Source: Escherichia phage cardinal. Taken from it: 64,000 bases of DNA. The notes beneath the pieces were generated by a model, which was given only the letters and a program-made list of their open reading frames with translations, was not told where the DNA came from and searched no databases. Below, one piece after another: positions 348 through 34,718 of this stretch (positions within the stretch are counted from its first letter, which is position 1; every line of letters begins with the position of its first letter). A program made the translations under genes and the position numbers. Location: the sequence record PQ567651.1; one strand, 5' to 3'.

Positions 348-1241
348 TTAAAAATTCCACACGTATGGAGATACAATTTGTTGTTGCAAATCTGACTGAT
401 TCTTAACAAGAACACCGGAATCTTCTTGGATGTTATCTTCCCACACATTAAGAGAATGAATGCAGTCAAAGTGCTCACTTAACTCTTTAAGACCTTTAGA
501 AAAGATACCGTGTGTAACATATAACTCAATCTTACCTGCGTTACGAGCACGTAGCACTTTAGCCAATTCAATAAAAGTTCTACCGCCGTCACAGATATCA
601 TCTACGATCATCAGGTTACGCTTATTGAAATCCTGTACAGAAATGTCTGTACGAACAATAGCACCTGTTGCAGTATCTCTAACCTTCTCTGCACAGAACA
701 CATCTAAAGACATTTTCTTAGATAATTTAAATATTTTCTTAAGAGCACCACCATCAGGACTAACAAGAGCAAAATTCTCCATACGTAACTTCCACTTTAA
801 AGTTTCATAAGCAATCTCTTCTTGAGGTATTACACAGAGTCTGTCAAACACCGCTGGAGTAACATCACTATGTGGATCAGCAACGATAACACGTGAGAAA
901 TTTAATGAATTAATTATAGAAGCAAATGCTTTAACTCCGAATGCTTCACCAGGCTCACACACTCTGTCTTGTCGTGCATACGGTACATACAACATGAGCA
1001 AATCAACACAATATGGTTTATGATATAGCATATTGTCCAATGCATTCTTAGTCATAACCAAAGTCATCAAGTCTTTAGCAGATCTTACTTCTAAAGAGAG
1101 TAAGATTCTGTCTGTAGCATGATTGAAACCTGATAGATTCGTGTCTAGTTGAACATGTTGTTCTCCACCAGAGAATGTAAAGACTTTAACGTCTACATCA
1201 GTAACATAACAGTCAACACCATGTAGAATACTAACTTTCAT
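348..1241 (-). CDS. ribose-phosphate pyrophosphokinase (PRPP synthetase)-like protein; possibly Adps-like
   Basis: 297 aa; PRTase motif MIVDDICDGGRTF, SPDGG and THGIFS motifs typical of Prs. Confidence 0.75.
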   Translation of the reverse strand: MKVSILHGVDCYVTDVDVKVFTFSGGEQHVQLDTNLSGFNHATDRILLSLEVRSAKDLMTLVMTKNALDNMLYHKPYCVDLLMLYVPYARQDRVCEPGEAFGVKAFASIINSLNFSRVIVADPHSDVTPAVFDRLCVIPQEEIAYETLKWKLRMENFALVSPDGGALKKIFKLSKKMSLDVFCAEKVRDTATGAIVRTDISVQDFNKRNLMIVDDICDGGRTFIELAKVLRARNAGKIELYVTHGIFSKGLKELSEHFDCIHSLNVWEDNIQEDSGVLVKNQSDLQQQIVSPYVWNF

Positions 1242-1662: not shown

Positions 1663-2031
1663 ATGAGGGTCACACGCTACGTTAGAAGTGAAACAATAGA
1701 TGGAAGCATAATGTATGCTTTCTACGATGATAAAACTTTTTGTTCTGCGTTCTATGAAGAAGACTTATCTACGGAATGGCAACAAATCATCTTCTTACTT
1801 GACATTTTGAAAAGAAGAGATAACTTTGAAGGTATTGAGTGGACAGTGGGAAGCAAAGTTATCATTCCAGGCTTAAGCAAACATGAGTTGCTTGACTTAG
1901 ATTGCAAACTTTGTAATTATCAATTCTCAAAACGTTTACCATTAGAAAGACAGTTAGGAGTTGAGATTCATGTTGACTTGGGCGATGGAGTATCCTATAC
2001 TCTCAACAAGCATAGTGCTGACGTTAATTAG
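1663..2031 (+). CDS. hypothetical protein
   Basis: track ORF, RBS AGGAGGG upstream; no recognisable motif. Confidence 0.55.
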   Translation: MRVTRYVRSETIDGSIMYAFYDDKTFCSAFYEEDLSTEWQQIIFLLDILKRRDNFEGIEWTVGSKVIIPGLSKHELLDLDCKLCNYQFSKRLPLERQLGVEIHVDLGDGVSYTLNKHSADVN

Positions 2032-2097
2032 TGGGATCACAAAGTGCGTCACGAGCATTTGCGATTGTTTAACACATTTTAAACAAAGGAAAAATAA

Positions 2098-2295
2098 ATG
2101 AATCAAACTATACAAACAAGCTATAGAGTAATTCTTGGTGAGTTCCATGTTGTTAAGTCAACATTGAATTATGAAGAAGCTAAAGAGAATTTCTTGCTTT
2201 GGGTTGAAGCATTCTCTGAAGTTGAAAAGGTAAGTTACAATTGTGTAACTTTGACTGCTGATCACGTACCTGTTTTGGAGTTTATTAAAAAATGA
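2098..2295 (+). CDS. hypothetical protein
   Basis: track ORF colinear with neighbours. Confidence 0.5.
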   Translation: MNQTIQTSYRVILGEFHVVKSTLNYEEAKENFLLWVEAFSEVEKVSYNCVTLTADHVPVLEFIKK

Positions 2296-2531
2296 AAAAA
2301 GAAATTTTAACTGATGTAACATATTCTTGTATTAGCAAAGGTGGTTTATATCGTGTAGTTGGCTTTCCTAAACCAGCGGGTGTATCTAAAGTATTTGATC
2401 CTGTTGTGATCTACGAAGATGTAAGGACTGGTCAACAGTATTGGCGATTCCAGCAAGATTTCTTACACCGTATGGAGGTTGTTGATGGCGAAAACACCGA
2501 AGAAGCGATCCGTAACAAAGCACGCATCTAA
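2292..2531 (+). CDS. hypothetical protein
   Basis: track ORF, start overlaps previous stop (ATGA). Confidence 0.5.
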   Translation: MKKEILTDVTYSCISKGGLYRVVGFPKPAGVSKVFDPVVIYEDVRTGQQYWRFQQDFLHRMEVVDGENTEEAIRNKARI

Positions 2532-2820
2532 AGATGGGGCGGCAAAGGCCGCTCCTAAGAAACAAAAATTTGACACAGAGGCTTTTGTCTTTGATACTCC
2601 AATAGAAAAGATAGAAGAAGCTCTTGCTAAATTTGAAGAACGTGAAGCAGATCCTATGGCAGATCCTTTCACAGAAGATGAATTGTATTGGTTTGGCTGG
2701 TGGGTTTTGAATCTACCAGAAGCTAAAAAACGAGGAATGAAATCAGTTCCTATTTGTGCAAAAGAGTCGGCTGTGTTAGGTTTATACGAGAAGCCTAAAA
2801 GAAGGAGCAAAAAGAAATGA
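2485..2820 (+). CDS. hypothetical lysine-rich protein
   Basis: ATG at 2485 preceded by GGAGG; track ORF 2479 uses TTG; basic N- and C-termini. Confidence 0.5.
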   Translation: MAKTPKKRSVTKHASKDGAAKAAPKKQKFDTEAFVFDTPIEKIEEALAKFEEREADPMADPFTEDELYWFGWWVLNLPEAKKRGMKSVPICAKESAVLGLYEKPKRRSKKK

Positions 2821-3095
2821 GAAAAACCTACCTGAAGTGTTTGTCTGTTGTGCAAAATGAATGGTATTCAGGTTTGCTGACAGCAGGTAAGAAATATGAA
2901 GTGCTCAATAAACCAGGGGCAAGGTTTTCATTAATTAAGAACGATGAAGGCACTGAAATGCTTATTTCAGTTGCAGATTCTGTGTATGGTACTTTTGAGT
3001 TTGTCTATGAACATGCACCAATTATTCTTGAATACAGCGGTACAAACAAACCTTACACAGCTTTAGATGTGATCAACAACAAAAGGAATAAATAA
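2817..3095 (+). CDS. hypothetical protein
   Basis: track ORF, colinear. Confidence 0.5.
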   Translation: MRKTYLKCLSVVQNEWYSGLLTAGKKYEVLNKPGARFSLIKNDEGTEMLISVADSVYGTFEFVYEHAPIILEYSGTNKPYTALDVINNKRNK

Positions 3096-3286
3096 TGTTC
3101 CTTATTTATTCAGGTAAAGCCAAATACATGCAAGGTGTAAAGCGTGTAGAAGTAGTAGATACTGTAACTATAGGAAAATCCTTTATTCTTTATCTGTTTT
3201 ATGTCAATGGAGAAAGATTTGCTGTTTCTAAGCAATTGGTAGATAAAGGTAAAACTTGGAAAGAAGAGAAACAGGAAGGGGGTTGA
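3095..3286 (+). CDS. hypothetical protein
   Basis: track ORF, colinear. Confidence 0.45.
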   Translation: MFLIYSGKAKYMQGVKRVEVVDTVTIGKSFILYLFYVNGERFAVSKQLVDKGKTWKEEKQEGG

Positions 3287-3288
3287 TA

Positions 3289-3630
3289 GTGGCTAAAATT
3301 CTTTGGTTAGACGATTTAAGAGATCCTAAAGATTATGGTTATGAGGATGCCATTTGGTTAAAATCTTTTGAGGATTGGTTATCTTTTGTTTCAGATGAAG
3401 ATAATTTCAATAATATCTCAGAGATACACTTCGATAATGATCTTGGAGAAGATCAAGAAGGATATCATGCGTTCTTAGACGTAGAATGTATGTTGTACGC
3501 GGGTGAATGGGATGCTCTTAAAACTATCTATGTTCATACATCAAATCCTTCTGCTGCTGGTAAATATATGTTAGCTAAGGAAAATTTTATTTCATCCTAT
3601 GGTATTGAAATTAAACGTGTTAACTATTAA
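3289..3630 (+). CDS. hypothetical protein
   Basis: GTG start after GGAAGGGGG RBS; track ORF starts at upstream TTG 3256. Confidence 0.5.
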   Translation: MAKILWLDDLRDPKDYGYEDAIWLKSFEDWLSFVSDEDNFNNISEIHFDNDLGEDQEGYHAFLDVECMLYAGEWDALKTIYVHTSNPSAAGKYMLAKENFISSYGIEIKRVNY

Positions 3631-3788
3631 GTAGGTATTATGCATTACTCAGTTTGGTCAGAGCAAGAAGAGGATGAAGGGCATTTTATCTATAAAGAGG
3701 AAGAAAACTGTAGCGATACGAGTAATGATCTTTTACTTCCTGATTACAGTTTTTTCGCTGATAGATTAAAAGAGTATGGGGAAAATTG

Positions 3789-4148
3789 ATGTGCGCTACT
3801 AATCAACATGATATTTGTTACCAACCTCTTACTTGGATTGGTGAGGATCACTATGCTCAACGTGTTATAGTCTGCGCTGCGAATAAGTATATTCTCAATA
3901 ATGGCGAAGAGTTAATTATTCCTTGTGTTAGGCATGCAAATCCTGTACTATCTGCACAACTTAATGTTTTAAAAGATGCAGGATTGATTGATAAACTGTT
4001 TTGCTTACCTGATAATCAAGGGTTTATTGATCAGTATTATAACTGGTGGAGTCGCAAAGATGCTTATATCATTGCAGATAACGCCAAACAAATTAACTAC
4101 GAAAGAAATGGTCACAACAGTGAACTATTCAGCGAGGGATTATACTAA
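3789..4148 (+). CDS. hypothetical protein
   Basis: track ORF; ATG at 3789. Confidence 0.5.
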   Translation: MCATNQHDICYQPLTWIGEDHYAQRVIVCAANKYILNNGEELIIPCVRHANPVLSAQLNVLKDAGLIDKLFCLPDNQGFIDQYYNWWSRKDAYIIADNAKQINYERNGHNSELFSEGLY

Positions 4149-4699
4149 TGTTTATTACAAGTGATTTGCATTTTATGCACAAACGTATCCGAGAGTTTGC
4201 TCCTGAATATCGCCCGTGGGAAGATATGGAGCATATGACAGAAGCACTGATCGAAGCATGGAATAAATGTGCCACAACACCAGGAGTAAAGATGTACCAT
4301 CTTGGGGACTTCTGTTTCGGGACTGAAGAAGATACCCGTAAGATTGCTTCCCGTCTCCAAGGGGATATTACTTACTGTGTTGGGAACCATGATTATAGTA
4401 AACACAGAAAAGTGCTTGCAGAGTATGGAGAAGTTGTGTATTATGACGAAGTGAAATATCAGAAGCTGTTCTTCGTCTTAAGCCATTACCCTATGGCTGC
4501 CTGGAATAAACAAGGGCATGGATCAATCATGCTACACGGACACTCTCACGGATCATTCCCTGATCATTTGTATGGGAAAATGTTGGATGTTGGTTGGGAT
4601 GCACACGGGAAAATCTTGCATTTTGACGAAATCATCTCTATTATGGATAAGCGTGATATTGTTGTTGTAGACCATCATAAGATAATCAAAGGAGATTAA
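4148..4699 (+). CDS. calcineurin-type metallophosphoesterase
   Basis: MPP motifs SDLHF, GDFCFG, GNHD, HGHSHG in order. Confidence 0.7.
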   Translation: MFITSDLHFMHKRIREFAPEYRPWEDMEHMTEALIEAWNKCATTPGVKMYHLGDFCFGTEEDTRKIASRLQGDITYCVGNHDYSKHRKVLAEYGEVVYYDEVKYQKLFFVLSHYPMAAWNKQGHGSIMLHGHSHGSFPDHLYGKMLDVGWDAHGKILHFDEIISIMDKRDIVVVDHHKIIKGD

Positions 4700-4700
4700 G

Positions 4701-5633
4701 GTGGCTAAGTTCAATTGTGATGACCTGATTGCAAAAGGTTTAGTGCATAAAAAAGAAGTTAAATCTGGAGAGTATGCTGGTCTTGCTGTGCTTAAATACA
4801 AAAACAATGTATTCTGGGATAATTTGTGGAACGTTGACAAACGACTTTTAGATTGTCGTGGGTTGGTTGTTGACTCAGAAGATAATGTTGTTATTTGGCC
4901 TTTTACTAAAATCTTTAATCGTTTTGAAAATGGTACAGATCTTCCAGCAGACGAAATTGTAGATGCTGTCCGTAAAGTAAACGGTTTTATGGCATCTGTA
5001 GGTGTGTACAAAGGGAAACTTGTTGTATCAACAACAGGGAGCCTAGAATCAGATTTCGCAATTATGGCAAAGAACCGTATTGTTTCCGAGTGTGACGACA
5101 TAGAGTATTTCATTAAGTGGACAGAGAGTGCAAAAGCAACTTTTCTTTTTGAAATCTGTGATCCTTCTGATCCACATATTGTCGAAGAAGAACCAGGCGC
5201 ATACTTAATTGGAGCAAGAATTCAAAATCTTGATGGAACAAGTTTCATGTTACCTGAAGGTGTTCTTGATGGGATTGCATCTATTACAAAGTTTAAACGT
5301 CCTGAAGTTTATCCGATGATTAAATTTTCAGATGTTGTTGAAATGTCTAAACATTGTAAACACGAAGGGTTTGTTGTTCGTGAAACAAACTATCCGTTTA
5401 ACTTACTCTTAAAGATTAAGTCACCATACTATCTTGCTAAGAAGTTCCTTATGCGTGGTGGCAATAAGAAGTGGGATATGATTTGGGACAACCCAAACAA
5501 TGCTAAACAAATTGTTGACGAAGAATATTATACTTTGTTAGAATGGCTTCGAAATAACTTTACGAAGGTTCAATGGGCTGCTCTAGATCCACAAGAGCGA
5601 CGTAAAGAAATAGAAAACTTCTTTGGAGGCTAA
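4701..5633 (+). CDS. RNA ligase, T4 Rnl1-like
   Basis: GTG start after AGGAGA; DCRGLVVD...FTKIFNRFENG and KVNG (motif I KxNG) and KIKSPYY resemble recalled T4 Rnl1 segments. Confidence 0.6.
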   Translation: MAKFNCDDLIAKGLVHKKEVKSGEYAGLAVLKYKNNVFWDNLWNVDKRLLDCRGLVVDSEDNVVIWPFTKIFNRFENGTDLPADEIVDAVRKVNGFMASVGVYKGKLVVSTTGSLESDFAIMAKNRIVSECDDIEYFIKWTESAKATFLFEICDPSDPHIVEEEPGAYLIGARIQNLDGTSFMLPEGVLDGIASITKFKRPEVYPMIKFSDVVEMSKHCKHEGFVVRETNYPFNLLLKIKSPYYLAKKFLMRGGNKKWDMIWDNPNNAKQIVDEEYYTLLEWLRNNFTKVQWAALDPQERRKEIENFFGG

Positions 5634-6038
5634 ATGAAACAACTTATCATTTTACGTGGTGTTTCAGGCGCAGGTAAATCTACAGTAGCAGAAATTATTT
5701 CTGAAGGTTATTGGCCTATCTGTGAGGCAGATCAATATCATTACACAGAAAACGGTGTTTACGATTGGAAGCCAGAAAATGTAGGTAAAGCACACTCATG
5801 GTGTCAGAGTATTGTTCGTGATGCTATGGCATCTAATATTAAAAAGATTATTGTCTCTAACACTTCAACCACAGAGAAAGAACTTAAACCTTATTTTACT
5901 ATTGCTGAAGAGTTTGGTTATCAAGTTATCTCTTTAGTTGTTGAAAATAGGCACGGTAACGACTCAATTCATGAGGTTCCACAACATATTCGTGATCAGC
6001 AAGAGAAACGTCTTCGCAGTTCACTTAAGCTACAATAA
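5634..6038 (+). CDS. polynucleotide kinase-like P-loop kinase (T4 Pnk kinase domain-like, no HAD phosphatase domain)
   Basis: N-terminus MKQLIILRGVSGAGKSTVA (Walker A) closely resembles T4 Pnk MKKIILTIGCPGSGKSTWA. Confidence 0.6.
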   Translation: MKQLIILRGVSGAGKSTVAEIISEGYWPICEADQYHYTENGVYDWKPENVGKAHSWCQSIVRDAMASNIKKIIVSNTSTTEKELKPYFTIAEEFGYQVISLVVENRHGNDSIHEVPQHIRDQQEKRLRSSLKLQ

Positions 6039-6047
6039 GGAGAGTGT

Positions 6048-6368
6048 ATGGAAATTTATTCTGGTGAAGGTAAGTATTTTACAGTAGTCGATAATGGTGA
6101 AATTATTATTTATCGCTACGGAAGTGAGTGGAGGAACGAGACAGGAGACGGCTATATCTTATCTTTGCTCAGTTTGATTAATGATCTTACGGAAGAACTT
6201 GAAGAAACAAAACGTTCGTATGATGATCAAGTAGATTCATTAGAAAACATTATTTCAGATCTAAACGAAGAAGTTTCTTGTTTGAATGAACAAGTTTCAG
6301 AATTAACACTGGAATGTGAAGATTTAGGTGATGTTATTGCAGATTTAAATGAACGTCTTAAGGATTAA
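6048..6368 (+). CDS. hypothetical acidic coiled-coil protein
   Basis: track ORF; heptad-like acidic C-terminus. Confidence 0.5.
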   Translation: MEIYSGEGKYFTVVDNGEIIIYRYGSEWRNETGDGYILSLLSLINDLTEELEETKRSYDDQVDSLENIISDLNEEVSCLNEQVSELTLECEDLGDVIADLNERLKD

Positions 6369-6371
6369 TAT

Positions 6372-6596
6372 ATGAGTACAGCTATCTATGTTAAAGGTGT
6401 AAGCGAAGATCAACAAATGTTATTCTCATTTGGTGAGAATACTGAAATGGAAGATATGTTTAATGATATCCTTGATGCCCTTTCTTCGGAAGGGTTCACA
6501 ATGATTACATACTTTATGGCAACATCTTCTGAATACGTTGATACAGATCTTGAAGACTTAATGGAAGAAATTCAAACTCTTGTGTATAATTGGTAA
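6372..6596 (+). CDS. hypothetical acidic protein
   Basis: track ORF, colinear. Confidence 0.5.
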   Translation: MSTAIYVKGVSEDQQMLFSFGENTEMEDMFNDILDALSSEGFTMITYFMATSSEYVDTDLEDLMEEIQTLVYNW

Positions 6597-6604
6597 GGGT
6601 AACT

Positions 6605-6793
6605 ATGACATTTATTGAAGAACTAACGAGAATTGCAAACGCACCTAACAGTAGCGAAGATCCTTACTTTATGGTGGATGATTACACTGGTGGTAATATT
6701 GATGATGCCTATGAACTAGGCAGACTACACGGTGAAATTGAAATGGCTAAATGGGTTCTTTCGCAACTGGAGGTTAAAGATGAAACAAACTAA
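6605..6793 (+). CDS. hypothetical protein
   Basis: ATG at 6605 within track ORF 6590..6793. Confidence 0.45.
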   Translation: MTFIEELTRIANAPNSSEDPYFMVDDYTGGNIDDAYELGRLHGEIEMAKWVLSQLEVKDETN

Positions 6794-7895
6794 TCCTACA
6801 TTATACGGCAAAACTTCTACAGGTAAAATTAAACAATGGTCAGTCTATACCGAAGGTAGTGTTGTAACTGTTGCTCATGGTCAATTAGGTGGAAAGATTA
6901 CTAGCAAATCTTATACAGCAGAACCTAAAAATATTGGTCGCTCAAATGAAACAACAGCAGAAGAACAAGCTGAAATAGAAGCTCTTGCCAAATGGACAAA
7001 GCAACTTAAGAGTGGGTATTATAAAACAAAAGAGGAAGCTGAAAATCATGTTCCTTCCACACCCATGAAATGTCAGGATTATAAAGATTATGCTGATCGT
7101 GTTTTGTTCCCAGGTTATGCACAATATAAATTGAATGGTCTACGTTCAATGATTAACATGCAAGGTGAATGTTTATCTAAAGCTGGGGAGGTATATAAAC
7201 TTCCACCTCACTGGGAAGAAATTCCAACCTTCATTAAAGAAGTAGTTGGTCATCCTCTTGACGGTGAAGTTTTTGCTGGTTTGGGTGTCCTTAGCCTTCA
7301 ACAAATTAATAGTGCGTGGAAAAAGCATAATGCTAACACACCACTTCTTAAATACTATGTATATGATGTTCCTGTGGCATCTGTACCATTTGAGAAGAGG
7401 GTTCAAGTTTTGGCTGCGCTAAAAGAAGTTGTTGAAGATAAAGGTTTAGATGAACTTATTTGTGTAGTACATACAGAGTACATTGAAAACCAAGAACAGT
7501 TTGATGCTTTCTATGCAAAAGCTCTACGTGAGAAAGCGGAAGGTGTGGTGTATCGTAACGCACAAGGTGTTTACGAGTTTGATAAACGTTCTTATGATGT
7601 TATTAAACGTAAACCACGACAGACGCTTGAAGTTAAAGTGGTAAGTGCAAAGCGTGATAAAAATGGTGACGGGGTATTGACAGGCGAGATGGAAAATGGT
7701 AAAGTAGTCGAATTCCTGATGCGTAAGGATTCAGATGAAACCATTAACTATCGTAAAGCAGAAAATGCCGAAATGTTAATTGGTAAATTTGTTGAGATTG
7801 AGTATGAAGAGTTTTCCGATGGTGGAATACCTACGAAACCAACAGGTGTCCGTTTACGTAAGATGATTCCAGGTACTTGGGAACCAGCAGAGTAA
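6780..7895 (+). CDS. ATP-dependent ligase-like nucleotidyltransferase (DNA or RNA ligase)
   Basis: ATG after GGAGG; candidate motif I YKLNGLR (KxNGxR); track ORF starts upstream at 6732. Confidence 0.5.
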   Translation: MKQTNPTLYGKTSTGKIKQWSVYTEGSVVTVAHGQLGGKITSKSYTAEPKNIGRSNETTAEEQAEIEALAKWTKQLKSGYYKTKEEAENHVPSTPMKCQDYKDYADRVLFPGYAQYKLNGLRSMINMQGECLSKAGEVYKLPPHWEEIPTFIKEVVGHPLDGEVFAGLGVLSLQQINSAWKKHNANTPLLKYYVYDVPVASVPFEKRVQVLAALKEVVEDKGLDELICVVHTEYIENQEQFDAFYAKALREKAEGVVYRNAQGVYEFDKRSYDVIKRKPRQTLEVKVVSAKRDKNGDGVLTGEMENGKVVEFLMRKDSDETINYRKAENAEMLIGKFVEIEYEEFSDGGIPTKPTGVRLRKMIPGTWEPAE

Positions 7896-7903
7896 GAGAT
7901 AAT

Positions 7904-8083
7904 ATGGTATTAGTAACAGTTCTTATGATGTTAATTGCTATTGCAATTATAATGTTAGCCTCGTTTCCAGTGGACAAATGGTACTGCAATTTTTGTAGAT
8001 TTGTTGTTTTCCTCTGTGCTGGGGTGTATATGGGCGAATCGGTAGTTCGCATTAGTGTTTTGTTAGAACAATATTTTAAATAA
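7904..8083 (+). CDS. hypothetical small membrane protein
   Basis: hydrophobic stretch VLVTVLMMLIAIAIIMLA; weak RBS. Confidence 0.35.
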   Translation: MVLVTVLMMLIAIAIIMLASFPVDKWYCNFCRFVVFLCAGVYMGESVVRISVLLEQYFK

Positions 8084-8092
8084 GGAGAAACA

Positions 8093-8815
8093 ATGATCGA
8101 GAATTTTTTCAAACAAGTAAAAGTGGACAATAGCTTCTTTATCAAAGCTGCCGATCAAATTGTTGCTTGGAATGCTAAGGCACGTGGTGGAGTAACCCCA
8201 GAATTTACTCAAGAGATGTTTGAAGCTCAACTTTCTTTTGTACGAGAAGAACTTAAAGAGTTTCAAGCAGCAGCACAGGAAAATGATCACGTTGAATTAC
8301 TTGATGCAGCAGCAGATATTTTTGTGGTAGCCTCCTACCTGGCATTTATGTTCTTTGGTAAAGAAGGTGTTGATAAAGCTCTGGAAATGCCGACAGGAGA
8401 TGTTCTGGCAGAAAACATTTACGATGTTATCATTGAATTTGATAAAATGGTAGAAAATGACTTGCAATTTGCCTTAATGTCTCTTACACTTACACGTATG
8501 GCACGAGATACTTTGGTGCGTTCTGTCTATAACGAGAAGAAGGTTATGCGTGAAGTGTTGAATAGCAATGAGTCCAAGTATCCTACCAAGAAGCAACTCC
8601 TGGCTATTTGGGAAACTAAGGATATTATTGAAGCTCTTGAAAAAGAGTGCGATGCTATCGAGATGCGAAGCAAAGATCGTGCAGAAGGTTCTTATACTGG
8701 GGTACATGCTGTATATAACGAAGTTCAAAAGGTGTACGTATTCTTTGATGACAAAGGTAAAATTATGAAACCATCTACCTTTGTTAAACCTAATATCGCA
8801 GCAATCATTGCTTAA
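8093..8815 (+). CDS. hypothetical protein, possibly MazG-like NTP pyrophosphohydrolase
   Basis: EELKEF...ELLDAAADIFVVASYLA resembles the MazG-type all-alpha NTP-PPase motif; weak. Confidence 0.4.
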   Translation: MIENFFKQVKVDNSFFIKAADQIVAWNAKARGGVTPEFTQEMFEAQLSFVREELKEFQAAAQENDHVELLDAAADIFVVASYLAFMFFGKEGVDKALEMPTGDVLAENIYDVIIEFDKMVENDLQFALMSLTLTRMARDTLVRSVYNEKKVMREVLNSNESKYPTKKQLLAIWETKDIIEALEKECDAIEMRSKDRAEGSYTGVHAVYNEVQKVYVFFDDKGKIMKPSTFVKPNIAAIIA

Positions 8816-26582: not shown

Positions 26583-27245
26583 ATGAAGTTTGTACTATAT
26601 CATCGACTTTCTAAGAAGAAACAACAAGGCAACCAGTATGGTATAGAATCACAGGAAGCAGATATTCAACGCTTCCTGGATTCACAAGAAAATTATACTA
26701 TTGTAGGTAGCTTTGCAGAGTTTTATTCGGGTAAAGGCGATTGGAAGCAACGTAGAGAGCTTGTAAAAGCTGTTAATCTTTGCAAAGAAACAGGTGCTAC
26801 ACTTGTTGTTGCTAAGGTTGACCGTCTTGGACGTAACACAGCTTCTGTTGCAACCTTGTTAGAGATGATCAATGTACGAATAGCAACTATGCCCTCCGCT
26901 GAAAATATGATAATAAATATTTTAGCAGTTCTGGCAGAAGAAGAGGCTCGTGCAATATCTGATCGTGTTAAGAAGAGCCTTAAGGTAGCAAAAGCGAAGG
27001 GAACGCTTCTTGGTGCAGCAAACCCTAAATACAAAAGAACAGATTATAAGAAAACGGAAGAAGCAAAACGCTCAAGAGAGTTTGCGCTTTCTTTAAAAGA
27101 TTCTTTAGTTGCATACAGAGCTTGTAAAACGCCATATATGACGATTGCAAAGCATCTGAATGAATCAGGAAAGAGAACTATTCGTGGGAGTTTGTTCGAT
27201 GCCAAAGCGGTACAACGTCTTTGTGCAAAATTGAATATTAAATAA
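26583..27245 (+). CDS. serine recombinase (resolvase/invertase family)
   Basis: YHRLS (catalytic Ser context), VAKVDRLGRN, EEEARAISDRVKKSL motifs. Confidence 0.75.
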   Translation: MKFVLYHRLSKKKQQGNQYGIESQEADIQRFLDSQENYTIVGSFAEFYSGKGDWKQRRELVKAVNLCKETGATLVVAKVDRLGRNTASVATLLEMINVRIATMPSAENMIINILAVLAEEEARAISDRVKKSLKVAKAKGTLLGAANPKYKRTDYKKTEEAKRSREFALSLKDSLVAYRACKTPYMTIAKHLNESGKRTIRGSLFDAKAVQRLCAKLNIK

Positions 27246-28379: not shown

Positions 28380-29121
28380 TGCTAGTATATCAAGAAATTA
28401 GTGTAAAAGATGATCAAGACCTGTTTATTATTGGTGATTTACATGGTTGCTTTGATTGTACCAGAAAGGTGTTAATACTTTAGGTATCCGAGATCAAGAT
28501 GTTGTTGTATCTTTAGGAGATCTTACAGATCGCGGCAAGCAGAATTTTCGTTGTGTTGTTGAATTCACCAGAAAGCTAAATCGTTATGGTATTCGTGGAA
28601 ACCATGAAGATATGATGATTAAAGGGTTGCTAGAAGGTGATAGACGATATTACGAATGTTGGTTTCAGAACGGAGGCCATACAGTTCTAGACGAGTGTGG
28701 AGAAGAGGGTGCAACTGCTCTTGCTTCGATGCTAGAAGATTTACCTGTTGTACTTGTTGTCAATTATCGTAATATGAAACTAGGCTTTATTCACGGTGGG
28801 TATCCTTCAGTTTTGGAACATTTGCCAATAACAGAAGTTTTGCCATTTTGTTTGAATATGAATAAAGAGCAAGTTTCTCGATTCACAGAATCTTTAATGT
28901 GGGATCGTGATATGATAGATTGCGCACTTGAAGGGATTCTTCTTCCTAGAGTTTCAGGAGTAGATTATGTATTTCACGGGCATTCTTATGTTCCTAAACC
29001 TGTGATTAGCAGTAATAGGGTATATATGGACACAGGATCTTGCTTCAATGGTAATTTAACCTTTGCATATTTTGATGATTCAAATACGTTACAATTTTAT
29101 TCTACTTTAGAGGAGGACTAA
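28379..29121 (+). pseudogene. lambda-type Ser/Thr protein phosphatase (PPP family) interrupted by apparent 1-nt frameshift near 28465..28483
   Basis: GDLHGC in frame of ATG 28379, then GDLTDRG, GNHE, HGG, GH in the track frame 28456..29121. Confidence 0.6.
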
Positions 29122-31284: not shown

Positions 31285-32274
31285 ATGAAAGTTTTAAGTC
31301 TTTTTGATGGTATGTCAGGAGGAATGCTTGCGCTAAAAAGTGCAGGTATTGAAGTAGATACATATTATGCTTCAGAATTAGACAAATTCGCCATAGCTGA
31401 AAGCCAAGCAAATTTTCCAGATATTATTCAGTTAGGTGATGTTACAAAATGGAGAGAATGGGATATCCCGTGGGGAGAAATTGATCTTTTGTTAGGTGGT
31501 AGTCCGTGTCAAGGCTTCTCTTCTTCTGGTAAGGGTTTGAACTTTCAAGATCCGCGATCTAAGCTATTCTTCGAATATGTTGAGATTCTTGAACATATTA
31601 AAAAGTTTAACCCTAATGTTAAGTTCATGCTTGAAAACGTTAAGATGAAAGTGGAGTGGGAAAACGTGATCACAAGTTACTTAGGTGTTGATCCCGTATT
31701 CATTAACTCCGCAGATTTCACGGCACAGAATAGACAACGTTTATACTGGTGCAACTGGGAAATAAAGCCTTGGGATATTACCAATGCAGTGCTGCAAGAT
31801 ATCATTGAAGATGATAGTATTGTAGACAGAGATAAGGCTTATTGCATAGATGCAAATTATGCCAAAGGTGGTAATATAGAACAGTATTTTGAAAAGAGTC
31901 GCAGACAACTGGTTTTTTATCCGGCAGCAATATATGGGCGTAGAATTAATGAAAATGGCAAACGTAGTACATCTAAAACTGATCGTTTGGTACATTGTTT
32001 GGAAGTTCAGGACAGTGAAAAAACTCGTTGCCTCACGACTGTGCCTAAAGACGTACTATTAGCTTACATTCCACCTGGAAGATATCTAGATGCCTTTGAA
32101 AAATTAAGTGAAGGCGTACATTATAGAAAGTTAACGGTTAAAGAGTGTTGCCGCTTGCAAGGTGTGCCAGATGACTACTTTAAAGTGAGTAGTAACACAC
32201 AAGCATATAAGATGTTAGGTAACGGTTGGACTATACCTGTCATTGCACATATTCTTAAATGTATGGAGGAATAG
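31285..32274 (+). CDS. DNA (cytosine-5)-methyltransferase
   Basis: SLFDGMSGG (motif I), GGSPCQGFS (PCQ motif IV), ENV, CCRLQGVPDDY, GNGWTIPVI. Confidence 0.8.
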   Translation: MKVLSLFDGMSGGMLALKSAGIEVDTYYASELDKFAIAESQANFPDIIQLGDVTKWREWDIPWGEIDLLLGGSPCQGFSSSGKGLNFQDPRSKLFFEYVEILEHIKKFNPNVKFMLENVKMKVEWENVITSYLGVDPVFINSADFTAQNRQRLYWCNWEIKPWDITNAVLQDIIEDDSIVDRDKAYCIDANYAKGGNIEQYFEKSRRQLVFYPAAIYGRRINENGKRSTSKTDRLVHCLEVQDSEKTRCLTTVPKDVLLAYIPPGRYLDAFEKLSEGVHYRKLTVKECCRLQGVPDDYFKVSSNTQAYKMLGNGWTIPVIAHILKCMEE

Positions 32275-33062: not shown

Positions 33063-33617
33063 ATGGGTTTTGATGATATGTTATTATATGAGGAGGCTTG
33101 TGTGAAAGAAGCTATGGCTTTACCAGTTTTATCTATTGATATTACAACAGTAGACACTTTTTCAGATTGTGAAACGTGTGGATCGTATTCAAGTATTGTA
33201 CATGTGGTCTGTGGGGATTTAGGCACTTACGAAGATGGAGATTATGCAAGTTGTTTAGGTGATAATCAAGATGGTGAAGTGGCAAATGTTGCAAACTGGA
33301 TTGCTTCTAAGTTAAAAGAAAGAAATCGTCCGTTCCCTAATCTTCTTACACCAGAAGCTATGCTTAAAGCTGAACAAGAGATGTATGATTATGGTTATAA
33401 AGTAGATTATGACTATAATGATCCTAATTATAAAAAATTGAGTGACAAGTATTGGGAACTAGCTAACGCTTATGATAAATACTACTCTACAGAAAACATT
33501 GTTAAATTGTTTTTAGATTTTGGAGTAGAAATTAATTGGGATTTCGAAGAGGAAGAGCGTTACGACGCATCTTCTTGGGATGATGATTACGAAGAGGATA
33601 TTGAATGCGAAGAGTAA
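33063..33617 (+). CDS. hypothetical acidic protein
   Basis: ATG after GGAGG within track ORF 33048..33617. Confidence 0.5.
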   Translation: MGFDDMLLYEEACVKEAMALPVLSIDITTVDTFSDCETCGSYSSIVHVVCGDLGTYEDGDYASCLGDNQDGEVANVANWIASKLKERNRPFPNLLTPEAMLKAEQEMYDYGYKVDYDYNDPNYKKLSDKYWELANAYDKYYSTENIVKLFLDFGVEINWDFEEEERYDASSWDDDYEEDIECEE

Positions 33618-34417
33618 TTTTTGTTAGTGGCGCAGGACTATCTGTGGATAGCGGTATCCCAGCTTTTAGAACAGATACTTCTTCAGGGGAGGCGTTATGG
33701 TCTTCTTATGATCTTTCTGAGGTTTGTGACATTTTCAACTTCCGTGACGGTTATCAGCAAGAACAAGGTGTTCTTGATGCTATGGGTGGTTTAGATGCGG
33801 AAGGATATAACCTCTACCGTAAAACTCACGACTTTTACAATAAACGTCGCGTGGAATTAGAGAAAGTTGACCCGAATCCAGCACATCTTCAGATTGGAGA
33901 ATGGTTCAAAAAATATGGCCCAGAACGAATTATTAACATTACTACTAACGTGGATGACCTCCTTGAACGAGCAGGAGTAGATAGGGAAGAAGTGCTACAT
34001 GTGCACGGTTTTCTTCCTGAAATTACTTTTCAAAGAAAAGCCGGACAACCTACAATTGTAAAAGATGTTGGTTATCAAGCCATAGATGTAGATGACTACC
34101 ATTATGTAAAACCTAATGTAATTTTCTTTGGGGAAGCTGCTCCACTTTACACGGATATGTATTATATTTTTGATACACTGACGGCTCAAGATTTGGTTGT
34201 AGTAGTAGGATGTTCAAACCAAGTTATCAATTTTAATTGGGAATTATTCCCTGCACTTAATATGGGTACAAAAATGATCGTTGTTAACCCAGGAATTAAT
34301 TACGAAGAAACTCTTCTTTACGAAGATAGAGGAGTCTTTGTTTATCGAGAAAAGGCCGCAGATGCTTTTAGCAATCCTGCTTTCATAAAAATGATAGAAG
34401 ATCATTTGACTAAATAA
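33605..34417 (+). CDS. Sir2-family (sirtuin-like) NAD-dependent protein
   Basis: VSGAGLSVDSGIPAFR, TTNVDDL, HG, PNVIFFGE, VVGCS match sirtuin motifs. Confidence 0.7.
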   Translation: MRRVIFVSGAGLSVDSGIPAFRTDTSSGEALWSSYDLSEVCDIFNFRDGYQQEQGVLDAMGGLDAEGYNLYRKTHDFYNKRRVELEKVDPNPAHLQIGEWFKKYGPERIINITTNVDDLLERAGVDREEVLHVHGFLPEITFQRKAGQPTIVKDVGYQAIDVDDYHYVKPNVIFFGEAAPLYTDMYYIFDTLTAQDLVVVVGCSNQVINFNWELFPALNMGTKMIVVNPGINYEETLLYEDRGVFVYREKAADAFSNPAFIKMIEDHLTK

Positions 34418-34424
34418 CTTAACC

Positions 34425-34448
34425 AAGGGGCGAAAGCCCCTTTTCTTA
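34425..34448 (+). terminator. rho-independent terminator ggggc-gaaa-gcccc + TTTT
   Basis: third copy of the same terminator hairpin. Confidence 0.7.
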
Positions 34449-34460
34449 TAGGAGAATATT

Positions 34461-34718
34461 ATGACCACAGAACAAATCGTTAAAGACCATTTTATGATGC
34501 ACTACGTTTATTACTTCAATAATAATCAACAGAAAGGTGAGGGATTTTGTTATCTATCCGCACAACAAGGTTTTGGTATCCGTCAAGCAGATATTAACGG
34601 AGCAGTGGCTGGAATTACAAAAGGCTTGGTTGCAAACCTTAAAGACAATGTTGTTGTTGTCCCAACGTGCATCTCTTACCTCTCAACCTGCCCTGAAGAA
34701 GATTTTATGCATTCCTAA
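34461..34718 (+). CDS. hypothetical protein
   Basis: track ORF, last gene of plus block. Confidence 0.5.
   Translation: MTTEQIVKDHFMMHYVYYFNNNQQKGEGFCYLSAQQGFGIRQADINGAVAGITKGLVANLKDNVVVVPTCISYLSTCPEEDFMHS

What the first reader, a model, noticed from the sequence alone, without database searches (positions are those of the whole stretch)
4148..6038. Three-gene RNA-repair cassette with a split Pnkp
A metallophosphoesterase, an Rnl1-like RNA ligase and a Pnk-like kinase lacking the HAD phosphatase domain are adjacent and co-oriented. In T4, Pnkp (kinase plus HAD phosphatase) and Rnl1 repair tRNAs cut by host anticodon nucleases. Here the end-healing phosphatase appears to be replaced by a separate calcineurin-type enzyme.
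Basis: partly seen in the sequence, partly recalled or inferred. Interest (0 to 1): 0.6.

Follow-up and report, generated by a model that had tools for sequence, protein, structure and literature searches.

The report
Phage three-gene RNA repair cassette
Three adjacent genes in an E. coli phage encode a metal-dependent phosphoesterase, a T4-type RNA ligase and a small RNA kinase that most likely mend host-cut tRNAs; this gene set is real and widely conserved, but it is already annotated and predicted in the literature and has never been tested biochemically.

Summary
Window 4148-6038 holds three abutting, co-oriented genes: a binuclear metallophosphoesterase (MPE, 183 aa), an Rnl1/Trl1-type RNA ligase (310 aa) and a 134-aa Pnk-like kinase with no HAD domain. 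All three keep their catalytic residues. Structure or profile searches place them next to aq_1665/YfcE, T4 Rnl1/fungal Trl1-LIG and T4 Pnk respectively.

The window is a Justusliebigvirus (phi92-like E. coli myovirus). Among 51 divergent ligase clusters from viral contigs, 38 have both the kinase and the MPE within 1.5 kb, in two gene orders. Kinase::Rnl1 and MPE::Rnl2 fusions exist, and cyanobacteria fuse kinase, MPE and Rnl1 in one protein. A heal-and-seal RNA repair module is therefore well supported.

Caveats:
- The MPE belongs to a different clade from the one MPE shown to heal RNA ends (CthPnkp/lambda phosphatase).
- A sister MPE clade occurs without any ligase.
- Close relatives keep the MPE and cREC genes but lack the ligase and kinase.
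- The ligase C-terminal module is short and unclassified.
- A cREC gene sits just upstream.

Nearly identical phages already carry the same annotation, and Iyer et al. 2022 described this neighbourhood type. Interest is moderate to low, but the system is easy to test.

The parts
4148..4699 (+). Binuclear metallophosphoesterase (183 aa) and proposed 3'-end healing enzyme. Metal-binding and catalytic residues D6, H8, D54, N80, H81, H113, H132 and H134 are invariant in the family.
4701..5633 (+). Rnl1/Trl1-type ATP-dependent RNA ligase (310 aa). Motif I is K92-V-N-G95. R53, K70, F72, E151, E222, G223, K238 and K240 are invariant. The C-terminal helical module is short (about 242-307).
5634..6038 (+). 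Stand-alone Pnk-like P-loop kinase (134 aa). It has P-loop G9-x4-G14-K15-S-T, invariant D33 (aligned with T4 Pnk Asp35) and R106 in the lid. It has no phosphatase domain.
   Evidence: (invariant columns). (profile against PDB: top hit T4 Pnk 2.2e-9, then Pnkp1, Mucorales RNA kinase and CthPnk). (fusions to Rnl1-type ligases).
3289..3630 (+). cREC protein (cyclic-phosphate-processing receiver-like domain). It is a probable accessory part and a predicted metal-independent 2',3'-cyclic phosphodiesterase. The ORF could also start at TTG 3256.
   Evidence: PF20274, 3e-14; PHROG 1479; start codon and RBS. cREC lies within 8 kb of the ligase in 9 of 51 clusters. The function is predicted, not tested (PMC7824862, PMC9503650).
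3640..4148 (+). Two small ORFs of unknown function lie between cREC and the MPE: 3640-3789 (49 aa, PHROG 18323) and 3789-4148 (119 aa, PHROG 839). They are translationally coupled to the cassette and are confined to close relatives. Whether they belong to the module is uncertain.
   Evidence: no PDB relative; homologues only in Justusliebigvirus-like loci plus two weak hits.

Best explanation
The three genes form a phage 'heal-and-seal' RNA repair module. [quoted passage not shown]

Proposed steps:
1. The MPE opens the cyclic phosphate and removes the resulting phosphate to give a 3'-OH. The upstream cREC protein may help with or replace the ring-opening step.
2. The 134-aa kinase phosphorylates the 5'-OH.
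3. The ligase adenylylates itself on Lys92, transfers AMP to the 5'-phosphate and seals the break.

Shown here: the folds, intact active-site residues, and conserved genomic linkage and fusions.

Inferred: the substrates, the order of steps, the division of labour between MPE and cREC, and the biological target.
For: Ligase:
- The AF2 model has pLDDT 91.
- The family profile finds T4 Rnl1 at 4.9e-9.
- K92 aligns with the T4 adenylylation lysine K99. Equivalents of R54, K75, F77, G102, E159, E227, G228, K240 and K242 are invariant.

Kinase:
- The profile's best PDB hits are T4 Pnk (2.2e-9), Pnkp1, a fungal RNA 5'-OH kinase, CthPnk and mammalian PNKP.
- The P-loop and the Asp aligned with the T4 Pnk general base are invariant.

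MPE:
- All six metallophosphoesterase motifs are invariant.
- The model has pLDDT 95.

Linkage:
- 38 of 51 divergent ligase clusters have kinase and MPE within 1.5 kb. The orders are MPE-RNL-KIN in 21 and KIN-RNL-MPE in 15.
- Ligase-linked MPEs form their own clade, which contains the window's protein.

Fusions:
- Kinase::Rnl1 fusions occur in viral contigs and Cardiobacteriaceae, the latter with this MPE family directly downstream.
- An MPE::Rnl2-type ligase fusion (L090) recurs at 79% identity in independent assemblies (P0242).
- Rnl2-MPE-Rnl1-kinase strings occur in L028 and L160.
- The nearest cellular homologues of the ligase are about 710-aa cyanobacterial kinase-Metallophos-Rnl1 polypeptides.

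Precedent:
- CthPnkp and lambda phosphatase are MPEs with RNA 2',3'-cyclic phosphodiesterase and phosphatase activity (PMC2190708).
- T4 Pnkp plus Rnl1 repair PrrC-cut tRNA (established knowledge; PMC6379707 conclusions).
Against: - No enzyme of this cassette has been assayed, and I found no report of one.
- Only 25 of 80 MPE-anchored viral loci have an Rnl1-type ligase within 8 kb.
- Close relatives L087-L089 keep cREC and the MPE but lack the ligase and kinase.
- The window holds a second MPE, a true lambda-phosphatase homologue, at 28456-29121. It could be the RNA-end phosphatase instead.
- T4 Rnl1 Lys119 is replaced by an invariant Thr112.
- The tRNA-specificity C-domain of T4 Rnl1 is not recognisably present. 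Only 266 of 310 residues align, and the C-terminal module is about 65 aa against about 120.
- The T4 Pnk Arg38 equivalent is not conserved (alignment).
Confidence: 0.68

Rival explanations
1. The ligase and kinase repair RNA, but the cassette MPE is not the RNA 3'-end phosphatase. Instead it hydrolyses a small molecule, such as a cyclic nucleotide immune signal, a 2',3'-cNMP or an ADP-ribose phosphate. On this reading it is one of the anti-defence genes clustered here, and 3' healing is done by cREC, by the lambda-phosphatase homologue at 28456-29121 or by a host enzyme.
For: - The nearest structures with known activity are small-molecule or diester phosphodiesterases: YfcE, MJ0936 and LpxH.
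- A large sister clade of this MPE family occurs with no ligase nearby.
- L087-L089 retain cREC and the MPE without the ligase and kinase.
- The cassette lies beside NARP1-like NAD+ reconstitution genes. An Adps-like gene lies within 8 kb of the ligase in 19 of 51 clusters.
- Iyer et al. 2022 allow that the calcineurin-like enzyme processes ADPr>P (PMC9503650, section 3.7.3).
Against: - The MPE is fused in frame to an Rnl2-type RNA ligase in two independent lineages.
- It sits next to the ligase in 42 of 51 clusters, in two different orders.
- Ligase-linked MPEs form a separate clade from the unlinked ones.
- The only NARP1-associated phosphatase found so far is a Macro-domain protein, not an MPE (bioRxiv 10.64898/2026.01.28.702374).
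Confidence: 0.17
2. The pathway is fungal/plant-like rather than T4-like. cREC or the MPE opens the cyclic phosphate to 3'-OH/2'-PO4. The ligase seals the break and leaves a 2'-phosphate at the junction. The phage Sir2 protein (33605-34417) then removes that phosphate using NAD+, which is regenerated by the neighbouring NARP1-like genes.
For: - cREC is adjacent.
- A Sir2 gene lies between the kinase and the DNA ligase in Phapecoctavirus-like relatives L007-L016 and is present in this window.
- Iyer et al. 2022 proposed exactly this role for the sirtuin (PMC9503650, section 3.7.3).
Against: - Sir2 lies within 8 kb in only 7 of 51 ligase clusters and cREC in only 9, whereas the MPE does in 47. 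The conserved core therefore needs neither.
- In this window Sir2 is 27 kb away, among unrelated genes.
- No sirtuin has been shown to act as a 2'-phosphotransferase.
- The Trl1 2'-PO4 site (Arg334/Arg337 in its C-domain, PMC6379707) has no demonstrated counterpart here.
Confidence: 0.1
3. The kinase and MPE heal DNA ends rather than RNA ends. They would convert 5'-OH and 3'-phosphate nicks made by host nucleases into substrates for the ATP-dependent DNA ligase encoded 0.7 kb downstream. The Rnl1-like protein might act mainly in tail-fibre attachment, like T4 gp63.
For: - An ATP-dependent DNA ligase (6780-7895) lies in the same gene string. One lies within 8 kb in 45 of 82 ligase-anchored loci.
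- T4 Pnkp also acts on DNA, and T4 gp63 has a second role in tail-fibre attachment (established knowledge; PHROG 562 label).
Against: - All fusions join the kinase and the MPE to RNA-ligase-type domains (PF09511, PF09414), never to the DNA ligase.
- The DNA ligase's position is variable and often several kb away.
- The genes lie among early and nucleotide-metabolism genes, not morphogenesis genes.
Confidence: 0.05

Closest known systems
T4 Pnkp (PseT) plus T4 RNA ligase 1 (gp63/RnlA), the tRNA repair pathway against the PrrC anticodon nuclease
   Same: - It is phage-encoded.
- The kinase aligns end to end with the T4 Pnk kinase domain.
- It follows the same heal-and-seal logic.
   Different: - The kinase is a separate 134-aa protein with no HAD/DxDxT phosphatase.
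- The presumed phosphatase is an unrelated binuclear metalloenzyme.
- The ligase is 64 aa shorter, with a reduced C-terminal module and Thr in place of T4 Lys119.
- The three genes abut here, whereas pseT and rnlA lie 1.4 kb apart in T4, with four genes (pseT.1, pseT.2, pseT.3 and alc) between them.
Bacterial Pnkp (Clostridium thermocellum Pnkp/Hen1), a kinase-metallophosphoesterase-ligase RNA repair enzyme
   Same: It has the same three chemistries. A binuclear MPE does the 2',3'-cyclic phosphodiesterase and phosphatase steps (PMC2190708), and the kinase is of the Pnk clade.
   Different: - Here there are three polypeptides rather than one.
- No Hen1 partner was looked for.
Sirtuin-centred RNA repair neighbourhood of phages rV5 and Mydo (Iyer, Burroughs, Anand, de Souza and Aravind 2022, PMC9503650, section 3.7.3)
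   Same: It has the same gene set: a T4-like tRNA ligase, cREC, a nucleotide kinase, a MazG-like pyrophosphatase (8093-8815) and a calcineurin-like phosphoesterase. It occurs in the same group of roughly 145-kb enterobacterial myoviruses. Loci L007-L016 show the described arrangement.
   Different: - In this window the Sir2 gene is not in the neighbourhood. It lies 27 kb away at 33605-34417.
- cREC is upstream of the MPE rather than between the ligase and the kinase.
- In my sample the MPE is the most constant partner, not an occasional one.
Cyanobacterial (Leptolyngbyaceae) kinase-Metallophos-Rnl1 single-chain proteins of about 710 aa
   Same: They are the nearest cellular homologues of the window's ligase domain (31-35% identity). 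They have the same three activities in the same order as bacterial Pnkp.
   Different: Their MPE domain is of the Pnkp/PrpE/lambda-phosphatase type (TIGR04075 partial match at 181 bits). It is not the family found in the phage cassette. All three activities are fused in one chain.
Aquifex aeolicus aq_1665 (PDB 1xm7), with YfcE and MJ0936, the minimal metallophosphoesterases
   Different: aq_1665 has no known function. YfcE and MJ0936 are known only as phosphodiesterases on artificial substrates. None has been linked to RNA repair.

Membership tests
Rnl1-type RNA ligase (T4 RNA ligase 1) | Covalent nucleotidyltransferase motifs I (KxxG), III, IV and V | tested here: met
   K92-V-N-G95, E151, E222-G223 and K238/K240 are invariant in 36 homologues. 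They align with T4 K99, E159, E227-G228 and K240/K242.
Rnl1-type RNA ligase (T4 RNA ligase 1) | [quoted passage not shown] | tested here: met
Rnl1-type RNA ligase (T4 RNA ligase 1) | A family-specific C-terminal domain. RNA ligase families are defined by their appended domains, and the T4 C-domain gives tRNA specificity (PMC6379707). | tested here: inconclusive
Rnl1-type RNA ligase (T4 RNA ligase 1) | A lysine equivalent to T4 Lys119. I recall it as essential from Wang, Ho and Shuman 2003; I did not check this here. | tested here: not met
   The aligned position is Thr112, which is invariant in the family (S110-T111-T112-G113).
T4-type bifunctional Pnkp | An N-terminal P-loop 5'-OH polynucleotide kinase domain with a catalytic Asp | tested here: met
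   G9...G14-K15-S-T and D33 are invariant. The protein aligns end to end with T4 Pnk residues 1-145, and the profile E-value is 2.2e-9. The T4 Arg38 equivalent is not conserved.
T4-type bifunctional Pnkp | A C-terminal DxDxT (HAD) 3'-phosphatase domain | tested here: not met
   The protein ends at residue 134. No match to the T4 PseT phosphatase half was found in any frame of the window.
Bacterial Pnkp (CthPnkp type) | Kinase, binuclear metallophosphoesterase and ligase modules in one polypeptide | tested here: not met
   The three modules are present but as three separate ORFs. Single-chain versions exist only in cyanobacterial relatives.
Bacterial Pnkp (CthPnkp type) | A phosphatase module of the lambda-phosphatase clade and a ligase module of the Rnl4 clade | tested here: not met
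Bacterial Pnkp (CthPnkp type) | A Hen1 methyltransferase partner | not tested
   I made no search for Hen1 in the window.
Binuclear metallophosphoesterase (calcineurin-like) superfamily | Motifs DxH, GD, GNH(D/E), H, GH and GHxH, with the alpha/beta sandwich fold | tested here: met
Sirtuin-centred phage RNA repair neighbourhood (Iyer et al. 2022) | A T4-like tRNA ligase with cREC, a nucleotide kinase and MazG, with or without a calcineurin-like phosphoesterase | tested here: met
   cREC is at 3289-3630, the MPE, ligase and kinase at 4148-6038, and a MazG/PRA-PH-like gene at 8093-8815.
Sirtuin-centred phage RNA repair neighbourhood (Iyer et al. 2022) | A Sir2 gene within the same neighbourhood | tested here: not met
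   Sir2 (PF02146, 3.7e-20) is at 33605-34417, 27 kb away. It is adjacent in relatives L007-L016.
RNA repair function (any family) | Demonstrated 2',3'-cyclic phosphodiesterase/3'-phosphatase, 5'-OH kinase and RNA sealing activities | not testable with these tools
   This needs biochemistry. I found no published assay of these proteins.

The most novel reading that the evidence does not exclude
The cassette runs a fungal-type repair pathway rather than the T4-type one. In this reading cREC or the MPE leaves a 2'-phosphate, the short Rnl1/Trl1-like ligase seals 3'-OH/2'-PO4 ends, and the phage sirtuin removes the junction 2'-phosphate with NAD+ supplied by the adjacent NARP1-like genes. That would make a sirtuin a functional analogue of Tpt1/KptA and tie phage RNA repair to NAD+ reconstitution.
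Probability: 0.1. Interest if true: 0.75.

Novelty: new member of a known kind. Interest (0 to 1): 0.35.

Why it matters
tRNA-cutting defences (PrrC, RloC, PARIS, some retrons, Cas13 and HEPN toxins) are common, but T4 Pnkp/Rnl1 is still essentially the only phage repair pathway that has been studied experimentally.

This cassette is a second, widespread solution. Homologues are present in 131 records of the phage collection, mostly E. coli, Salmonella and Klebsiella phages of about 145 kb. These include members of the BASEL collection and therapy candidates.

It uses a phosphoesterase family with no known function, whose closest solved structure is the uncharacterised aq_1665. Confirming its activity would give that family a function. 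It would also help explain host-range differences between relatives that carry the ligase and kinase and relatives that lack them. The three small enzymes could also be useful for RNA end manipulation.

Tried and rejected
- Single-sequence PDB searches with the ligase found nothing relevant, and those with the kinase were ambiguous. Family profiles were needed.
- NCBIfam gave no useful name for any of the three proteins.
- The promoter and terminator scan found no more sites than in shuffled sequence and did not define an operon.
- No tRNA genes lie in the window. A direct link to the phage tRNA cluster, which lies just outside the window in relatives, could not be examined.
- My first kinase HMM was contaminated by kinase::ligase fusions and hit every ligase. 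I rebuilt it from stand-alone kinases.
- I considered that the MPE might be the 'phage phosphatase' that feeds NARP1. The paper shows that enzyme is a Macro-domain protein, so I rejected this as a direct identification.
- I considered that the MPE::Rnl2 fusion might be an assembly artefact. A 79%-identical 525-aa homologue from other assemblies argues against that.
- The 'anti-restriction nuclease' label on the PHROG 839 ORF has no support from Pfam, NCBIfam or PDB.
- Burroughs and Aravind 2016, probably the primary description of such systems, is not held in the library.
Full report
**What the window is.** The region is 97-99% identical to Justusliebigvirus phages (Stephanstirmvirinae; phi92-like, about 146-kb E. 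coli myoviruses). The best match is vB_EcoM_ZYD at 99.4%. In BASEL phage Bas62 (JohannJBalmer) the three genes are already annotated 'putative phosphoesterase', 'RNA ligase' and 'polynucleotide kinase'. Other records use equivalent names.

**The observation.** They are co-oriented, 1 and 0 nt apart, and each has a Shine-Dalgarno-like sequence. They belong to a tightly packed + strand string running from 1663 to 7895. Adjacency in this genome alone is therefore weak evidence.

**The ligase (310 aa).**
- It matches Pfam RNA_lig_T4_1 at 2.7e-14.
- A profile of 36 homologues finds T4 Rnl1 as the only strong PDB hit, at 4.9e-9.
- The AlphaFold model is confident (pLDDT 91.1).
- K92 in K-V-N-G aligns with the T4 adenylylation lysine K99.
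- R53, K70, F72, G95, E151, E222, G223, K238 and K240 are invariant and match residues that contact ATP or are essential in T4 Rnl1 (PMC6379707).

The ligase departs from T4 Rnl1 in two ways. T4 Lys119 is an invariant Thr here. The C-terminal module is about 65 aa instead of about 120 and is not clearly aligned to either the T4 Rnl1 or the Trl1 C-domain. Shuman's classification defines RNA ligase families by these appended domains (PMC6379707). The protein is therefore safely 'Rnl1/Trl1-type', but its exact family is unresolved.

**The kinase (134 aa).**
- It contains only a P-loop kinase domain.
- A profile of 49 homologues hits T4 Pnk best (2.2e-9, end to end). Next come Capnocytophaga Pnkp1, a Mucorales RNA 5'-OH kinase, CthPnk and mammalian PNKP.
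- The P-loop and D33 are invariant. D33 aligns with T4 Asp35.
- There is no HAD domain, and none was detected anywhere in the window.

**The phosphoesterase (183 aa).**
- All metallophosphoesterase motifs are invariant in 49 homologues: D6-x-H8, G53-D54, G79-N80-H81, H113, G131-H132 and H134.
- The model has pLDDT 94.9.
- It therefore works, at most, like the CthPnkp phosphatase. It is not a member of that clade.
- The window also encodes a genuine lambda-phosphatase/NinI homologue at 28456-29121 (6.6e-23 to 1g5b).

**Conservation of linkage.** I anchored on the ligase and fetched 80 viral loci with 40-97% identity. I scored their neighbours with HMMs built from the window's proteins.
- After collapsing to 51 ligase clusters (80% identity or less), the kinase is fused or within 1.5 kb in 43.
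- The MPE is within 1.5 kb in 42 and within 8 kb in 47.
- Both are within 1.5 kb in 38.
- The main orders are MPE-ligase-kinase (21 clusters) and kinase-ligase-MPE (15 clusters).
- cREC (9 clusters), Sir2 (7) and Adps-like (19) are much less constant.

The reverse test looked worse at first. Only 25 of 80 MPE-anchored loci have an Rnl1-type ligase nearby. A neighbour-joining tree explains this. It splits the family into a clade that is almost always ligase-linked and contains the window's protein, and a clade that is almost never linked. The nearest-neighbour label agrees in 113 of 123 cases. The tree is rough, and half of the sequences came from the ligase-anchored search.

The exceptions matter. 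L087-L089 carry MPEs 59-90% identical to the window's and keep cREC, the DNA ligase and MazG, but they have no ligase or kinase.

**Fusions.**
- Kinase::Rnl1 fusions of about 420-430 aa occur in one viral group, and fusions of about 490 aa occur in Cardiobacteriaceae. In the latter the same MPE family follows immediately.
- In L090 an MPE 54% identical to the window's is fused to a PF09414 (Rnl2-type) ligase domain, followed by an Rnl1-type ligase and a kinase.
- A 79%-identical 525-aa homologue from other assemblies shows that this fusion is real.
- L028 and L160 have Rnl2-MPE-Rnl1 strings.
- The nearest cellular homologues of the ligase are about 710-aa Leptolyngbyaceae proteins. Their domain order is AAA_33 kinase, Metallophos, RNA_lig_T4_1. 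Their kinase and MPE parts resemble bacterial Pnkp.
- Two unrelated MPE clades have thus been recruited next to Rnl1-type ligases. That is what one expects if the role is 3'-end healing.

**Context.**
- Upstream of the MPE lie a cREC gene (PF20274, 3e-14) and two small unknown ORFs.
- Downstream lie an ATP-dependent DNA ligase and a MazG-like pyrophosphatase.
- On the other strand at 348-1241 is a PRPP-synthetase-like gene. In relatives it sits next to a NAMPT-like gene. This is the gene pair now known as NARP1, Adps plus Namat.
- Iyer et al. 2022 described this neighbourhood type in rV5 and Mydo. [quoted passage not shown] They proposed that the sirtuin removes 2'-phosphates (PMC9503650).
- Loci L007-L016 show that arrangement, with Sir2 between the kinase and the DNA ligase.
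- In this window Sir2 lies 27 kb away at 33605-34417.

**Mechanism.** The best-supported reading is a T4/CthPnkp-like heal-and-seal pathway. The MPE, possibly with cREC, heals the 3' end, the kinase heals the 5' end, and the ligase seals (confidence about 0.68).

Rival readings:
- The MPE acts on small molecules, and cREC or the lambda-phosphatase homologue heals the RNA (0.17).
- A Trl1-like 2'-phosphate route finished by Sir2 (0.10).
- DNA-end healing or tail-fibre attachment (0.05).

No experimental work on these proteins was found.

**Verdict.** It is already annotated in GenBank and predicted in the literature. It is a further member of the known heal-and-seal RNA repair kind. Its distinctive details are an aq_1665-type MPE, a minimal kinase and a short Rnl1/Trl1-like ligase. 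All three are untested and easy to test.

Noticed in passing
window 348-1241 (- strand); L001 1553-3286: A PRPP-synthetase-like gene lies here, and in relatives an adjacent NAMPT-like gene just beyond the window edge. The pair looks like the phage NAD+ reconstitution pathway NARP1 (Adps plus Namat). An Adps-like gene lies within 8 kb of the RNA ligase in 19 of 51 ligase clusters.
   Followed up: partly
window 33605-34417 (+): A Sir2-family protein (PF02146, 3.7e-20; PHROG 2162). Its homologue sits between the kinase and the DNA ligase in Phapecoctavirus-like relatives (L007-L016). Here it lies 27 kb from the cassette, at the end of the + strand gene block.
   Followed up: partly
window 28456-29121 (+): A second metallophosphoesterase, a clear lambda-phosphatase/NinI homologue (1g5b, 6.6e-23; PHROG 246). 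Lambda phosphatase has RNA 2',3'-cyclic phosphodiesterase activity in vitro (PMC2190708), so this protein is an alternative candidate for RNA end healing.
   Followed up: partly
window 3789-4148 (+) and 3640-3789 (+): Two small ORFs (PHROG 839 and PHROG 18323) are translationally coupled to the MPE gene. Some GenBank records call the first an 'anti-restriction nuclease', but Pfam, NCBIfam and PDB searches give nothing. Homologues are almost confined to close relatives.
   Followed up: partly
L087, L088 and L089 (MPE at 8001-8546, 618-1172 and 8001-8558): These close relatives carry MPEs 90%, 74% and 59% identical to the window's. They keep the DNA ligase and MazG (L087 and L089 also cREC) but have no RNA ligase or kinase gene between the MPE and the DNA ligase. 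They are natural 'deletion' variants.
   Followed up: partly
L090 8001-9575; protein P0242: A 524-aa protein fuses this MPE family to an Rnl2-type (PF09414) RNA ligase domain, followed by an Rnl1-type ligase and a kinase. The fusion recurs at 79% identity in independent assemblies.
   Followed up: yes
L168-L199, for example L186 6768-8906 (Leptolyngbya sp. PCC 7375): Cyanobacterial proteins of about 710 aa have the domain order kinase, Metallophos, Rnl1-type ligase. They resemble bacterial Pnkp in the first two domains (TIGR04075 at 181 bits, far below its cutoff of 750) but carry an Rnl1-type rather than an Rnl4-type ligase. I did not look for Hen1 or examine other neighbours.
   Followed up: partly
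L021-L043, for example L030 6735-7205: In 12 viral loci a roughly 156-aa protein lies near the cassette, in L030 directly upstream of the MPE gene. By eye it has an HD-domain signature (H...HD...D, RelA/SpoT-hydrolase-like). I did not check it against Pfam.
   Followed up: no
window 31285-32274 and 26583-27245 (+): The window encodes a C5 cytosine DNA methyltransferase (PF00145, 1.8e-43) and a serine-recombinase/resolvase-domain protein (PF00239, 8.4e-22).
   Followed up: no
window about 34000-34500: Coding strand and GC skew switch sign together here. Skew is positive up to about 34 kb and negative after. ORFs are on the + strand before this point and on the - strand after it.
   Followed up: no
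window 6048-6368 (+): A 106-aa predicted coiled-coil protein (PHROG 18076, 'hol-like chemotaxis') lies directly after the kinase. One GenBank record labels it 'putative DNA polymerase I', which looks like a mis-annotation.
   Followed up: no
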